Shown here piece by piece: positions 15,601 to 47,464 of a stretch of 64,000 nt of DNA. A program made the position numbers and the translations under genes. The notes under the pieces are model-generated. The model was given only the letters and a program-made list of their open reading frames with translations. It searched no databases and was not told the origin of the DNA. Source of the stretch: Negaprion brevirostris. Lineage: Eukaryota. The stretch lies in the NCBI GenBank assembly GCA_030324005.1, contig JARDVH010000073.1:41085677-41149676 (forward strand). The letters are read 5' to 3'. Numbering within the stretch: position 1 is the first letter of the stretch; the number at the start of each line of letters is the position of its first letter.

Positions 15601-18600
15601 TGCCTGGATTGGGTGGCATGCCTTATGAGGATAGGTTGAGGGAGCTCGGTCTTGGAGAGACGAAGGATGAGAGGTGACCTGATAGAGGTGTATAACACGT
15701 TGAGAGGTATAGATCGGGTGGCTTCTCAGAGGCTTTTTCCCAGGGCTGAAATGGTTGCTACGAGAGGACACAGGATTAAGCTGCTGGGGAGTAGGTACAG
15801 AGGAGATGTCAGGGGTAAGTTTTTCACTCAGAGGGTGGTGGGTGAGTGGAATNNNNNNNNNNNNNNNNNNNATCTATGTCCTGCTGCAACTTTTGCCATC
15901 CTTCCAGACCATCCACAACACCCCCGACCTTAGGATTGAAGGTTATAGGTAAGCCTAGTAGGTAGGGATATGATCGGTGCAACTTGTGGGCCGAAGGGCC
16001 GGTTTGTGCTGTAGTTTTTCTATGTTCTATGTGGAGATGCTGATGTTGGACTGGGGTAAGCACAGTAAGAAGTCTCACAACACCAGGTTAAAGCCCAACA
16101 GGTTTATTTGGTAGCACAATTCTCACTCACCTGAAGAAACAGCGACACTCTGAAAACTTGTGCTACCAAATCAATCTGTTGGACTTTAACTTGTTGTGAG
16201 ACTTCTTACAGAAATTATATGACTAGGGGAGCGGGTGGTATTCAGGTGATGCCTGTGATGGCCTACCCACCCTCACCCCAACTGAGGCCCTAAGTAGCCA
16301 ATAAAGGGCCACTTTCTGTCATCTCTAATTCACAAGATGAGCTTCAACAAAGACAGGGATGCTGATGCAAAAAGCCCTGTGCAGAAAATCTAGAGTATAT
16401 TAAAGAAGCAAACGTTACCACTGAATCTCTTCCAAACTACCTCAGAGATATCTGACTCACCGAACTATTGCACACTTGCTTAATAGACAGCAGACTGTCT
16501 ACTAAGCAAGGGACAAATACCACCATTGTAAGAAGCAACACCTTTAACACTATACGTTAACTGTTCAAGAGGAAAACCATTTATAGGGTGGCTCATTTTT
16601 CTCTAACATGAGCCAAAGATGCCATTCATGAGAATTAATGCTCCTCAACATCAAGACATGAACAGAAAAAATTGGCACTTATATGATGTCCATGTGATAT
16701 CTAACCATATAAAATCACCAATATCAATTGTTACTATTCAGGAGCTGTTTTATCTTCCTTGTGAGCTTGCCAAAGTGGCAATTGTAATAAAAGAATGCGG
16801 TGCACGCGGCGCGGCGGGGGGGATGACACTACATTAACCAATGTTAATCACTGCATCCAAGTTAATTGGCCCCACTGAGAAACTCCTAACAGCAAAGGAG
16901 TGCTTGATGCTTCAGCATGTGATTACTGTTCTTTAGCTGCCATCTCTACCTGCAAGAGAAACATGCCATTTGATTTAGGCAGGCTAGTGGAAACAAAACA
17001 GCAATGTCTGATTACAATACTTTTAATGGTACCTTTAAAGTTGGCATGAGTTCCAGCTTAGGTTTGTGCCATACTTAGGTTTAAAAAATGAGAAAAACAC
17101 TCAGTCATTTCCGACTATGAGGACGTAACTGTGATTTTACTGGGATTTGCTAAATTGGATCATCTTCCTTTCCTGTAACTTCTGCAGCTGAACCTCACAT
17201 TTGTGAACATTGCATTGTGTTCACTTTTCCAGCACCATCATAAACTCCTGTGGACAGCAGCATCCTTATAGGAGTTGCTGCATGGCCTAATATTACACTT
17301 CACAAACAGGGCACAAAGACACAAACTCAGTTTACATGCATAATGATTGGAATGTGAGTCTTTACAGCTAATCAATTCTTAGAGATACAGATAATGTGAG
17401 TGGAGAGAGCTTTAAGCACAGGTTAAAGAGATGTGTATTGTTTCCAGACAAGAAAGTGAGTGAGATTTTGCAAGTCCAGACAAGTTGTGGGGGTTACAGA
17501 TAATGTGACATGAACCCAAAGTCCCGGTTGAGGCTATTCTCATGTTGCGGAATTTGGCTGTCAATTTCTGCTCAGCGACTCTGCGCTGTCGTGTGTCATG
17601 AAGGCCGCCTTGGAGAACGCTTACCCGAAGATCAGAGGCCGAATGCCTGTGACCACTGAAGTGTTCCCCAACGGAAGCGAACACTCTTGCCTGTTGATTG
17701 TTGAGCAGTGTTCATTCATCCATTGGACACTGGGGACATCATGCAGACGCTACGACAATGGATGAATGAACGCCGCTCGACAATCACCAGGAAAGAGTGT
17801 TCTCTTCCTGTTGGGGAACACTTCAGCGGTCATAGGCATTCAGCCTCTGATCTTTCTCCAACACGGCCTTCACGACAGTGTAGAGTGCTGAGCAGAGACT
17901 GATAGCCAAGTTCCGCATACGAGGACGGCCTCAACCAGGATCTTGGGTTCATGCCACACTGTCTGTAACCCCCACGACTTGCCTGGGCTTGCAAGATCTC
18001 ACTAACTGTCCTGACTGAAGACAATACACATCTCTTTAACCTGTTCTTAACTCTCCCTCCACTCACATTGTCTGTATCTTTAAGACTTGATTACCTGTAA
18101 AGACTTGCATTCCAATCATTATTTTGTAAATTGAGTTTGTGTCTTTATATGCCCNNNNNNNNNNNNNNNNNNNNNNNNNNNNNNNNNNNNNNNNNNNNNN
18201 NNNNNNNNNNNNNNNNNNNNNNNNNNNNNNNNNNNNNNNNNNNNNNNNNNNNNNNNNNNNNNNNNNNNNNNNNNNNNNNNNNNNNNNNNNNNNNNNNNNN
18301 NNNNNNNNNNNNNNNNNNNNNNNNNNNNNNNNNNNNNNNNNNNNNNNNNNNNNNNNNNNNNNNNNNNNNNNNNNNNNNNNNNNNNNNNNNNNNNNNNNNN
18401 NNNNNNNNNNNNNNNNNNNNNNNNNNNNNNNNNNNNNNNNNNNNNNNNNNNNNNNNNNNNNNNNNNNNNNNNNNNNNNNNNNNNNNNNNNNNNNNNNNNN
18501 NNNNNNNNNNNNNNNNNNNNNNNNNNNNNNNNNNNNNNNNNNNNNNNNNNNNNNNNNNNNNNNNNNNNNNNNNNNNNNNNNNNNNNNNNNNNNNNNNNNN

Positions 18601-21600
18601 NNNNNNNNNNNNNNNNNNNNNNNNNNNNNNNNNNNNNNNNNNNNNNNNNNNNNNNNNNNNNNNNNNNNNNNNNNNNNNNNNNNNNNNNNNNNNNNNNNNN
18701 NNNNNNNNNNNNNNNNNNNNNNNNNNNNNNNNNNNNNNNNNNNNNNNNNNNNNNNNNNNNNNNNNNNNNNNNNNNNNNNNNNNNNNNNNNNNNNNNNNNN
18801 NNNNNNNNNNNNNNNNNNNNNNNNNNNNNNNNNNNNNNNNNNNNNNNNNNNNNNNNNNNNNNNNNNNNNNNNNNNNNNNNNNNNNNNNNNNNNNNNNNNN
18901 NNNNNNNNNNNNNNNNNNNNNNNNNNNNNNNNNNNNNNNNNNNNNNNNNNNNNNNNNNNNNNNNNNNNNNNNNNNNNNNNNNNNNNNNNNNNNNNNNNNN
19001 NNNNNNNNNNNNNNNNNNNNNNNNNNNNNNNNNNNNNNNNNNNNNNNNNNNNNNNNNNNNNNNNNNNNNNNNNNNNNNNNNNNNNNNNNNNNNNNNNNNN
19101 NNNNNNNNNTATAATAACTTATATGTTATTTTATATAAATCACTCTCTATCAAAGCTGAACATTAACGAGCAATACTTCAGACGAGCTCCAACACCAGAT
19201 GTACGGTTGAGTAAAAACAGCAGTTGTGCTTACAGTTCTGAAGTTTCAATGTATTTTGCTGTTCCCTCAATTGTGTGGCAATATTCTGCTGCAAACTTGG
19301 TGATGAGCTGCAGCAATGTTGCACTCTTGTCTTCCACTGGTTCACCGTAACTGTTCAGTAAAGACTGGTACTGAGCAGCCAGGACATTTATCCTGGTCTT
19401 AAGCTCTGGCAAGCAATCTCGAATATGGTGCATTAATAATCTACAAAAATAAAATTAAATATATTAATAAAATTCTCTCAGGCCAAAGAATTTAGAGAAA
19501 ACAGAATTACAAAGATATATAAAAATGCAAATATTATGCCTAGCCTAATTCCCATTGTACTTGCACCTAACTTTACAGGTAGAACACTTGGCAGTGCAGT
19601 GTGGAGATTTCTTGCACGAGTCGTTGGCACATGCAACTTTTTCAAAGAAAATTGGAGACCTACAAAGTCCACCAACTACATTTTTAGGGAAATTAGCTGT
19701 ACCGTGGCCAGTGATAGAAACCCAAAGAAAACAAAAAGGGGGAACAAAAACAATTTTATGCATCTTCTTTCTCCCCAGATGATGACAGAGACATTACCAC
19801 AGGATTTCATAAACTCCACGAAGGGCTTAAGTGATCAAGGCAAAGAGCAATATCTGGAGCATAACATTCACAGAGACAAACTTTGCAGTTTGGTTCCTTT
19901 AGATAGCTAAATCTGTTAACCAAATATTACCTATTCAAAGTTTTGGCCAAATACTTGGTTCCATTTCTGTTAGCAAGAGAGGGATATTTCTTTTGTAGAA
20001 AAGCATGTTCATCCTTTAAAGCATCTGCCACAATTTTCTTATTGTTGATGTCTAGCTGACTCCTGAAGAATGCACATAAACATATCTTAAGTATAATTAG
20101 AGCAACACAAACAATTCTTTAAAAGTTTCTACTTATAACTTGAGAATTGAAATAAGCAACATGCCCCAGAAGAAACGAGAGAGTAAACAGAATGATGTAT
20201 TTTCATTAATGTCAACGTATTTTCCAGTTAAAATATAACACATCTGAACAGTGACATTGTAATTTCACTTATCCCAAAGTAACAGTTCACATGTATGAAT
20301 CAGCTTTCGCCAGTTCCAATACACTAGAGTTCTTAATCTCAACAACATTGAAGAGATATGGGGAAGAAACGTTGAGCAATTGTTTCATTTAAGTTAGAAA
20401 GAAAATATTTTCAGCAAAGCAATGGAAGGGAGAAGAAAAAACGTTTCAACTGCGAAAACTGATAAATAACCTAATCCCAGGCTTTGTCCAACTAAGGTAG
20501 TTTCTATAAAGTGGCACCGGATGATTCTCCCTTGTTGTTACTTCCCTGCAGAGATGTAGAAACAGGACAAACATAAGGAACTCAGCACACTAAGGATTGC
20601 AGGAATTATGGAGAACCTTATCATTCAATGCCACACCAGACACCAAAGTGTTACACATAAATAGGGTATCGCTCCTCATTTTCATCTAAAATAATTTTTC
20701 CCCTGGCTACCCAAACACAAAATGACATTTTTTGATTGAGAAGTCAGGCAGGTGACCTTCTTAACTGCATCTATCTATATTGCCAAGCATGATGGCTTAA
20801 AGATTTTCGAATATCATCTGGAATGACTAATCTCAGGCTTTACTTTTGCTCTCTGTGAAGGAAACTGTTACTTATGCAGAACTCCTTCTTCACATTTCTT
20901 AATTTAAAAACAATTTTCTTCTCCCTTTGTCCCTACCTCTGTTAACACTGCTCAACTGTGGTATAATGAAACTGCCAAACAGAAGAACAATAATAACATA
21001 TTCCTTCATCATTCTGAAATTTATATTGTCAAAGCAACTAAACAACTATTTTAGTTCTGTCTTCGTGCTAAAGCACCAGAGTCTAACGAGGAGGAGGAAC
21101 GGAAGGAAATTAGCATTAAGGAAAAAATTGTGCTGGGAAAATTAATAAGGCTGAAAGCCAATAAATCCCCAGGATCTGGTAATCCGCATTCCAGGGTGCT
21201 AACAGAGTGCCCTTGATAATAGCGGGTGTGTTGGTTGTTGTCTTCTAAAATTCTGTAGATTCTGGAACAGTCCTGGCTAAATGTAACCCTGTTATTTAAA
21301 AAAAAGGAGAAAACAGGAATTTACAGACTGGTTAAGCTAACATCAATAGTAGGGAAAATGCTACAGTCTACTGTAAAGGATGCAAGAAAAGGACACTGAA
21401 AAAATATAAACAGAATTAAACAAAGTCAACATGGATTTATGAAAGGGAAATCTTGTAAGACAAACCTACTGGAGTTTTTTGAGGACATAACTAGCATAAT
21501 AAATAAAGGGTGAACCAGTCGATATGGTGTATTTGGATTTGCAGAAAGATTTTGATAAAGTGGCACATAAAAGGCTACTGTGCAAAATTAAAGCACATAG

Positions 21601-47391: not shown

Positions 47392-47464
47392 GTAAGTCGT
47401 CTCACAACACCAGATTAAAGTCCAACAGGTTTAACCCAGTCCAACCCCAGCATCTCCACATCAT
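47392..47464. mobile_element. 73-bp minimal Penelope-derived terminal element
   Basis: gtaagtcgtctcacaacaccagattaaagtccaacaggttta + cccagtccaaccccagcatctccacatcat, flanked by aactaaagctga / aactaaaactga. Confidence 0.75.

What the first reader, a model, noticed from the sequence alone, without database searches (positions are those of the whole stretch)
16029..47464. Family of miniature Penelope-derived hairpin retroelements carrying hammerhead ribozymes, with 12-13 bp TSDs
Seen: four insertions (16029-16209, 24360-24605, 39703-40801, 47392-47464) share the terminal arm gtaagaagtctcacaacaccaggttaaagtccaacaggtttatttgg and a one-sided ~35-nt tail (atgatgtggagatgc..ttggactgggg). Three carry an inverted copy of the arm. 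Each is flanked by its own 12-13 bp direct repeat. Three contain a CAC-CTGANGA-stem II-GAAA-GC-TT-GTG-type motif, intact at 24510-24544 and damaged at 16128-16162 and 40725-40756. The 1.1-kb member encodes a decayed GIY-YIG endonuclease. Known: Penelope-like elements have pseudo-LTRs with minimal hammerheads whose palindromic stem III allows dimeric cleavage. Inference: a deletion series of non-autonomous, ribozyme-processed, retrozyme-like elements mobilised by a shark Penelope.
Basis: partly seen in the sequence, partly recalled or inferred. Interest (0 to 1): 0.75.

Follow-up and report, generated by a model that had tools for sequence, protein, structure and literature searches.

The report
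Truncated shark Penelope-like retrotransposon insertions
These are broken, folded-back remnants of a known kind of shark jumping gene rather than a new family of self-cutting mini-elements, though their ends keep hints of how such elements insert into DNA.

Summary
There are four insertions, each a head-to-head pair of 3' ends of one Penelope-like element (PLE), with a 36-39 nt tail on one end only and a 12-13 bp target-site duplication (TSD). Corrections: copy A really starts at 15522, with a CR1-type LINE nested in its tail, and two more fragments were missed (17299-18154, 34361-34414). The parent is a Neptune-type PLE with a GIY-YIG domain 69-73% identical to shark RT-endonuclease proteins. 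The retrozyme / replicating-miniature reading is not supported: all 4 of 4 inversion junctions differ, there is no tandem array, each copy has at most one hammerhead, and even the best one (24513) has a decayed helix II. Inverted arms, one-sided tail, minimal hammerhead and variable TSD are all published PLE hallmarks. Best reading: independent, dead 5'-truncated insertions, made when both target strands primed reverse transcription. Three post hoc leads from few copies: one tailed plus one tail-less end in 4 of 4, with the tail-less arm always reaching further upstream; AACCAGA beside the TSD in 3 of 4; and 3 of 11 arm ends at the ribozyme cut site.

The parts
15509..15521 (.). Copy A, left TSD copy (13 bp); its last 4 nt overlap the tail end
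   Evidence: exact match to 16210-16222; the 12-mer occurs only twice in the window
15522..15525 (-). Copy A, outermost piece of the tail, cut off by the nested LINE
15526..16028 (+). Nested 5'-truncated CR1-type LINE 3' end inside A's tail, with a 5-bp duplication (15521-15525 / 16029-16033)
   Evidence: 73-77% identity to LINE-like repeats near 1570-1890 and 2640-2710; the CR1 label is recalled, from no call
16029..16119 (-). Copy A tailed arm (ruler +115 to +25..+28); tail 16029-16064
16117..16209 (+). Copy A tail-less arm (-18 to +79) with damaged hammerhead 16128-16162; 3-nt microhomology at 16117-16119
16210..16222 (.). Copy A right TSD copy
17299..18154 (.).
24347..24359 (.). Copy B left TSD copy
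24359..24454 (-). Copy B tailed arm (+118 to +23); tail 24359-24397
24466..24604 (+). Copy B tail-less arm (about -55 to +82), with up to 11 unassigned nt at 24455-24465 and a 7-nt duplication after the cut site
24510..24544 (+). Minimal type I hammerhead of copy B: core intact, palindromic helix III, predicted cut between 24541 and 24542, helix II decayed
24606..24624 (+). Copy B right TSD copy (24606-24618) and adjoining AACCAGA (24618-24624)
34361..34414 (+). Copy F (missed): solo arm +30 to +83, starting near the hammerhead cut site; no TSD or partner arm found
39690..39702 (.). Copy C left TSD copy
39703..39872 (-). Copy C tailed arm (+118 plus 2 nt, to about -99); the hammerhead is deleted between 5-nt direct repeats
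39873..40801 (+). Copy C tail-less arm: decayed end of the ORF (linker, Zn-finger-like motif, GIY-YIG at 40210-40533), 3' UTR, damaged hammerhead 40725-40756, end at +74/75
40802..40821 (+). Copy C right TSD copy (40802-40814) and adjoining AACCAGA (40815-40821)
47380..47391 (.). Copy D left TSD copy
47392..47433 (-). Copy D tail-less arm (+38 to +79/80); no hammerhead
47431..47464 (+). Copy D tailed arm (+85 to +118), tail only; 3-nt microhomology at 47431-47433
47465..47482 (+). Copy D right TSD copy (47465-47476) and adjoining AACCAGA (47476-47482)

Best explanation
These are independent, dead, 5'-truncated insertions of one old Neptune-type Penelope-like retrotransposon of a shark. Shown: each is two 3' ends of the parent joined head to head, one ending at the tail and one ending 35-44 nt earlier, between 12-13 bp TSDs, with a different junction every time. 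Inferred mechanism: the parent's RT-GIY-YIG protein nicks the two target strands 12-13 bp apart, and each free 3' end primes reverse transcription, one at the distal start site (tailed end) and one at the proximal start site (tail-less end). Both cDNAs stop early and are joined, often over 3-5 nt of microhomology, and fill-in makes the TSD. The hammerhead is part of the parent's pseudo-LTR and is carried along only if a cDNA is long enough. The hairpins are by-products, not replicating units.
For: Unique junctions in 4 of 4, on a ruler with +1 = the A of AUG in the ribozyme core: tailed / tail-less arms reach +25..28 / -18 (A), +23 / about -55 (B), about -99 / about -858 (C), +85 / +38 (D). 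Outer ends fall in two clusters, +117..120 and +74..83. Microhomology is 3 nt in A, 3 nt in D and 5 nt in E. Fold-back of a single cDNA is excluded in 4 of 4, because the tail-less arm holds upstream sequence that the tailed arm lacks and the tailed arm holds the tail. The anole PLE PAc nicks and extends both strands and starts reverse transcription at two sites that bracket the tail, the main one at +111-118 counted from A9 of its hammerhead core; the shark tail ends at +115 in that numbering (PMC11167929; my hand count). Inverted 5'-truncated copies and a one-sided 30-40 bp tail are standard PLE features (PMC8557442), and head-to-head is the commonest inverted form, with 8-10 bp TSDs in a rotifer (PMC3846280). 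Parent identity: 69% over 108 aa to a 643-aa Heptranchias RT-EN protein; a Scyliorhinus gene model reads GIY-YIG, 3' UTR, hammerhead, arm and tail in one line. The 8 arms compared match at 23/28 to 31/32 positions, with no block of shared variants marking the short copies.
Against: Only four complete copies in one window; no genome-wide data were available (the genome-contig scan gave 0 hits). B's junction has up to 11 unassigned nt and C's looks blunt, so microhomology joining is seen in only 3 of 5 junctions. Dual priming is inferred from the anatomy and from a Poseidon-clade enzyme, not from a Neptune enzyme. The template requirement (ORF nt up to +172) was shown only for PAc, and another paper reports that pLTRs alone sufficed for trans-mobilisation in a rotifer. 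E's left end and F fit neither end pattern cleanly. No RT-coding sequence of the parent is in the window.
Confidence: 0.82

Rival explanations
1. One reading: a replicating family of miniature non-autonomous, hammerhead-processed (retrozyme-like) hairpin elements mobilised in trans by a shark PLE.
For: Short TSD-flanked copies with a hammerhead exist. Non-LTR retrozymes derived from PLE pseudo-LTRs are reported in vertebrates, including one cartilaginous fish (bioRxiv 10.64898/2026.07.22.740005). Non-autonomous PLEs and pLTR-driven trans-mobilisation are described. Three of 11 arm ends lie near the cut site.
Against: 4 of 4 junctions are unique. The only tandem repeat in the window is a 15-bp unit elsewhere. 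Each copy has at most one hammerhead and D has none, so no unit-length RNA can be cut out. In whole-copy folds helix I has pairing probability near 0, and forcing the hammerhead costs 14.3 (A) and 11.0 (B) kcal/mol; 6.8 and 8.1 of that remain without the antisense arm, so decay contributes as much as the hairpin. Sizes of 73, about 190, 246 and 1099 bp do not cluster.
Confidence: 0.07
2. The inverted structure comes from self-priming on an antisense transcript or from fold-back of one cDNA, as proposed for rotifer Penelope copies, rather than from priming at both nicks.
For: Proposed in PMC3846280 to explain head-to-head repeats with palindromic junctions. Short microhomologies would also arise from fold-back.
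Against: Neither arm is contained in the other in 4 of 4 copies, which rules out simple cDNA fold-back. Both outer ends sit at the two sense-RNA start-site clusters. No long junction palindromes are seen. An antisense-template route is not excluded.
Confidence: 0.07
3. The short copies were inserted as longer elements and later shrank by internal deletion, the first reader's 'deletion series' without replication.
For: C's tailed arm lost its hammerhead between 5-nt direct repeats. Microhomology-mediated deletion of PLE copies is described. Long inverted repeats are unstable (recalled). The copies are old and decayed.
Against: 5' truncation at insertion is the PLE norm, so no extra step is needed. 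Random deletions would not predict arm ends near the ribozyme cut site. This changes how the size arose, not what the elements are.
Confidence: 0.04

Closest known systems
Neptune clade of endonuclease-containing Penelope-like elements
   Same: C-terminal GIY-YIG preceded by a CX2-5CxxC linker motif (CHSNLCKTC in shark homologues; decayed in copy C); hammerhead in the pseudo-LTR; inverted 5'-truncated copies; one-sided tail.
   Different: The targets here are not microsatellites, the bias reported for Neptune; AACCAGA adjoins the TSD in 3 of 4. The clade call rests on the motif, which Nematis shares; no RT tree with labelled references was built.
Poseidon_Ac (PAc) of Anolis carolinensis, PMC11167929
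   Same: Hammerhead, then about 50 nt, then a 30-40 nt tail ending in an AC-rich stretch at nearly the same distance from the core (+115 here, +111-118 there); two start sites; both strands extended.
   Different: Poseidon lacks the linker Zn-finger-like motif. PAc's ORF starts inside the hammerhead, whereas the core AUG here meets a stop at codon 23 (read). PAc prefers ATT in AT-rich DNA. Helix II is 6 nt shorter here.
Minimal hammerheads (min-HHR) of metazoan PLEs, PMC4209133
   Same: Core intact in B, one unpaired base before helix II, palindromic positions 15.2-16.2, short helix I.
   Different: The conserved G10.1-C11.1 pair is G.U in B, and the same T is found in A and C; helix II has 3 pairs; the cleavage-site base is U. 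No activity was tested.
Non-LTR retrozymes (PMC7229834; bioRxiv 10.64898/2026.07.22.740005)
   Same: Short, non-coding, PLE-related, type I hammerhead, TSD longer than 4 bp.
   Different: Retrozymes are head-to-tail tandem repeats with a ribozyme in each unit and give circular RNAs. These copies are head-to-head, have zero or one ribozyme, and each has its own junction.
L1 twin-priming inversions (recalled, from no call)
   Same: Both target strands prime cDNA, and the products are joined by microhomology inside a TSD.
   Different: In L1 the second primer anneals far inside the RNA and the two pieces do not overlap. Here both pieces start at fixed sites 35-44 nt apart and copy the same sequence, which makes a hairpin.

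Membership tests
EN+ Penelope-like element (fragments of) | C-terminal GIY-YIG endonuclease of PLE type with CCHH motif | tested here: met
   69-73% identity to the closest shark RT-EN proteins; 22 of 30 aligned members hit Pfam GIY-YIG at E<=0.01, the window fragment itself does not; ESM Atlas rows 2-3 are GIY-YIG clusters at 0.95, with the family on 41-42% of members; the profile hits T4 endonuclease II at E=3.6e-4. In copy C two near-invariant residues, C13 and R33, are lost.
EN+ Penelope-like element (fragments of) | RT domain upstream of the endonuclease in one ORF | tested here: inconclusive
   Absent from the window; present in relatives (RVT_1 above cut-off in P0024 and P0025; 24 of 30 members).
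EN+ Penelope-like element (fragments of) | Hammerhead motif in the pseudo-LTR | tested here: met
   (1 full motif against 0.005 expected; 2 damaged copies by alignment); the same region reads through in a Scyliorhinus gene model.
EN+ Penelope-like element (fragments of) | 30-40 bp tail, often at one end only | tested here: met
   36-39 nt in A, B and D (about 44 against C's shorter end), one end only in 4 of 4.
EN+ Penelope-like element (fragments of) | 5' truncation, inverted 5'-truncated partner, variable-length TSD | tested here: met
Neptune (or Nematis) clade | CX2-5CxxC motif between RT and EN | tested here: met
   Present in 5 of 5 long homologues printed and in 6 of 6 homologues aligned; first two cysteines visible in copy C frame 2.
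Neptune clade | RT phylogeny groups with Neptune references | not tested
   No clade-labelled RT references were available. Only Neptune and Poseidon were reported from vertebrates.
Penelope/Poseidon clade | Linker Zn-finger-like motif absent | tested here: not met
   The motif is present; definition.
Non-LTR retrozyme | Head-to-tail tandem units, each with a hammerhead | tested here: not met
Non-LTR retrozyme | Self-cleavage and circular RNA accumulation | not testable with these tools
   Folding argues against it for whole-copy transcripts, but these models cannot score protein-assisted or dimeric hammerheads.
Replicating non-autonomous subfamily (SINE- or MITE-like) | Several copies with the same ends and internal junction at different loci | tested here: not met
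   0 of 6 pairs among A-D share a junction; window only.
Replicating non-autonomous subfamily (SINE- or MITE-like) | Genome-wide recurrence | not testable with these tools
   No eukaryotic genome collection was available; the prokaryotic genome scan gave 0 hits.

The most novel reading that the evidence does not exclude
The short copies are in vivo snapshots of the unsolved PLE integration step. A dimeric Neptune enzyme reads a defined target motif (AACCAGA at one nick), nicks 12-13 bp apart, and primes asymmetrically: one subunit at the proximal site leading, the other at the distal tail site trailing on the same RNA or on a hammerhead-cleaved RNA. That would explain one tailed and one tail-less end in 4 of 4, the tail-less arm always reaching further upstream, D's tailed arm stopping 5 nt short of where the other cDNA starts, and three arm ends at the ribozyme cut site. 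It would also be the first sign that hammerhead cleavage shapes PLE templates in vivo. It is testable at once on the many copies in any shark assembly.
Probability: 0.3. Interest if true: 0.62.

Novelty: new member of a known kind. Interest (0 to 1): 0.33.

Why it matters
As a discovery of a new element class it does not matter: every structural feature is a published PLE hallmark. Its value is practical and mechanistic. Curators should file such 70-250 bp hairpins under the parent PLE, not as MITEs or retrozymes. The way tandem and inverted PLE structures form, and what the hammerhead does, are stated open questions (PMC8557442; PMC11167929). Six fragments in 60 kb suggest a shark genome holds enough copies to test end polarity, target preference and cut-site truncation by counting alone.

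Tried and rejected
Rfam at the gathering threshold and at E<=10: no hammerhead family hit. Pfam and PDB sequence search on the window's GIY-YIG fragment alone: only weak SRA1 hits below cut-off, rejected as chance. Thermodynamic folding of the isolated motifs: no hammerhead fold, z 0.4-0.8 in 4 of 4; this is uninformative for minimal hammerheads. The strong hairpin z-scores (-9.2 and -8.2) only restate the inverted repeat. A TSD next to 16029 and a TSD for F were not found. The prokaryotic genome scan for stray copies gave 0 hits. Homology of the B, C and D target sites as a cause of the shared AACCAGA was rejected: the only cross-hit over 10 nt is a 22-nt reverse match between C and D flanks, at non-equivalent positions. 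I first assumed the Poseidon clade from the spacing match with PAc and dropped it on the linker motif. The bacterial promoter scan is irrelevant to a vertebrate. MITE/DNA-transposon origin was rejected: asymmetric ends, 12-13 bp TSDs and continuity with an RT-EN ORF. Literature listings for twin priming + Penelope (3 papers), Neptune + target site (4), cartilaginous + Neptune (1), shark + Penelope (3), miniature non-autonomous PLE (20 of 25 listed), head-to-head (2) and Penelope + ACCAGA (15 of 18 listed) showed no title on this family, on dual priming in PLEs or on this motif. I saw mostly listings, the library lacks most subscription papers, and Repbase/Dfam could not be searched, so absence from print is not shown. 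No structure prediction or complex prediction was run.

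
Full report
1. What is in the sequence. The window is 40% G+C, CpG-depleted (observed/expected 0.27) and gapped. The four loci A (16029-16209), B (24360-24605), C (39703-40801) and D (47392-47464) share the arm and tail as described. 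BLAST within the window adds E (17299-18154, running into an N gap) and F (34361-34414). B, C and D have TSDs of 13, 13 and 12 bp with one mismatch each; random site pairs do as well in 0.3-0.7% of 1500 trials. A has no TSD beside 16029. Its left copy is 15509-15521, an exact 13-bp match to 16210-16222, displaced by a ~500-bp LINE 3' end that later inserted into A's tail (the CR1 label is recalled).

2. Common anatomy. I placed all arms on one ruler, with +1 at the A of AUG in the hammerhead core and the predicted cut between +26 and +27 (junctions refined by hand). Each of A-D is two 3' ends of the same element pointing outwards. One ends at +117..120 (tailed), the other at +74..83 (tail-less). 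Inner ends, tailed / tail-less: A +25..28 / -18; B +23 / about -55; C about -99 / about -858; D +85 / +38. No two junctions match. Microhomology is 3 nt in A, 3 nt in D and 5 nt in E; B has up to 11 unassigned nt and C is blunt. C's tail-less start comes from protein homology, since the ruler was built from C itself there. The 8 arms compared match at 23/28 to 31/32 positions, the two arms of one copy are no closer than arms of different copies, and no block of variants marks the short copies.

3. The parent. The 108-aa stretch at 40210-40533 has no Pfam hit above cut-off by itself. It matched 23 of 42 candidate proteins, the top six from Mustelus and Scyliorhinus at 68-75% identity, and is 69% identical to a 643-aa Heptranchias RT-endonuclease protein. 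Of 30 aligned sequences (the fragment plus 29 named homologues that I chose), 22 hit Pfam GIY-YIG and 24 hit RVT_1, and the profile's only PDB hit is T4 endonuclease II. Copy C has lost two near-invariant residues, C13 and R33, and is frameshifted upstream. Homologues carry CX4CxxC before the GIY-YIG, which marks Neptune/Nematis and is absent in Penelope/Poseidon (PMC8557442). A Scyliorhinus septin gene model has swallowed a collinear copy reading GIY-YIG, UTR, hammerhead, arm and tail, which shows this order in the parent. No RT-coding DNA is in the window.

4. The hammerhead. Rfam does not see it. A minimal-hammerhead descriptor finds one full motif, B at 24513, against 0.005 expected; bare cores are common, 7 loci against 2.8 expected (descriptor written after seeing the motif). 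Helix III is a self-complementary AGCU as in PLE min-HHRs (PMC4209133). Helix II in B has three pairs closed by G.U instead of the conserved G10.1-C11.1. A and C share the same T, while the Scyliorhinus copy reads Gln at that codon, so I infer opposite-strand decay of one CpG. In whole-copy transcripts helix I has pairing probability near 0; forcing the fold costs 14.3 (A) and 11.0 (B) kcal/mol, and still 6.8 and 8.1 without the antisense arm. Published min-HHRs show no monomer cleavage and low multimer cleavage; PAc's needs its protein and is dispensable for insertion in vitro.

5. How it most likely works. Shown elsewhere: PAc nicks and extends both strands, is predicted to be a dimer, starts reverse transcription at two internal sites that bracket the tail (main site +111-118, counted from A9 of its core), and needs RNA up to ORF nt 172. 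Shown here: the shark tail ends at +115 in that numbering (hand count), and both outer ends of every complete copy sit at the two clusters. Neither arm is contained in the other, so one cDNA folding back cannot make these copies. Inferred: nicks 12-13 bp apart each prime a cDNA, both stop early, they are joined, and fill-in gives the TSD. The products end at or before the tail and so, by analogy with PAc, lack the protein-binding segment. Against this last step, rotifer pLTRs sufficed to mobilise a host gene in trans. Rival routes are listed separately.

6. Comparison with what is known. Inverted 5'-truncated partners and a 30-40 bp tail often at one end only are drawn as typical PLE structure, and head-to-head is the commonest inverted arrangement. 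Non-LTR retrozymes are tandem repeats with a ribozyme in each unit; the window has no such array. So these are PLE fragments, Neptune-type by motif, and not retrozymes. They work like L1 twin-priming products (recalled) but with overlapping templates.

7. Leads beyond the finding, all post hoc and from few copies. (a) One tailed plus one tail-less end in 4 of 4, and the tail-less arm reaches further upstream in 4 of 4; each has probability 1/16 under a 50:50 null, so neither is significant alone. PAc showed no strand difference in start site. (b) AACCAGA abuts the TSD in B, C and D, which are 3 of the 10 occurrences in the window. The null frequency is 0 of 20000 at the nick and 1 of 4000 allowing any register from -18 to +12. 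A lacks it, having only AACAGA at the opposite nick. The motif is next to the tailed-arm nick in B and C and the tail-less nick in D. The sites are not homologous. (c) 3 of 11 arm 5' ends (A tailed, B tailed, F) lie within +22..+31, p about 0.01 under a log-uniform null of my choosing. A is compatible with the exact cut, B overshoots it by 4 nt, and PAc RNA-seq showed no reads ending at the cut.

8. What I saw of each paper. PMC11167929: parts 1-3 of 4 of the text and the machine text of supplements 1-2 (figures and the consensus file not visible). PMC4209133: parts 1-2 of 4. bioRxiv 10.64898/2026.07.22.740005: parts 1-2 of 5 and passages, no supplements. PMC8557442: passages and section 15. 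PMC3846280, PMC8969392, PMC2377424, PMC7229834, PMC9004415: passages only. Arkhipova 2006: not seen, cited through PMC8557442.

9. Verdict. The interpretation as a miniature replicating ribozyme family is not supported within the window and could not be tested genome-wide. Novelty: new member of a known kind. Interest 0.33, carried mostly by the three leads, which a genome-wide count could settle.

Noticed in passing
window 38973-39060 (+): A second hammerhead-like core with a decayed helix II and downstream sequence unrelated to this family; single copy in the window. Probably a remnant of another ribozyme-bearing shark repeat (recalled resemblance, untested).
   Followed up: partly
window 24618-24624, 40815-40821, 47476-47482: AACCAGA directly beside the TSD in 3 of 4 insertions; possible target-site preference.
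   Followed up: partly
window 15526-16028: LINE 3' fragment inserted into the tail of copy A with a 5-bp duplication, so it is younger than A.
   Followed up: yes
window 39703-39707: C's tailed end runs 2 nt past the others and reads ATGA on the sense strand, while the AUG in the hammerhead core meets a stop at codon 23; the parent ORF may start at the tail end, unlike PAc. One copy only.
   Followed up: no
window 212-277: Near-perfect 66-nt hairpin scoring below threshold against several miRNA models; possibly a small MITE-like palindrome.
   Followed up: no
window 27948-28007 (+): Partial tRNA-like sequence (Rfam RF00005, 50.6 bits; anticodon loop reads UUU, Lys-like), not called by ARAGORN; likely a pseudogene or SINE head.
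   Followed up: partly
window 1553-3104, 29466-30430, 35932-37153, 57270-58629: Several local duplications spaced about 0.8-1.1 kb apart at 80-98% identity, some next to 100-N gaps; may be assembly artefacts or tandem LINE pieces.
   Followed up: no
P0005, P0010, P0012, P0018, P0021-P0023: Pieces of this PLE are built into several named shark gene models (septin 5a, XRCC5, PPP1R12A-like and others); exonisation or annotation error.
   Followed up: partly
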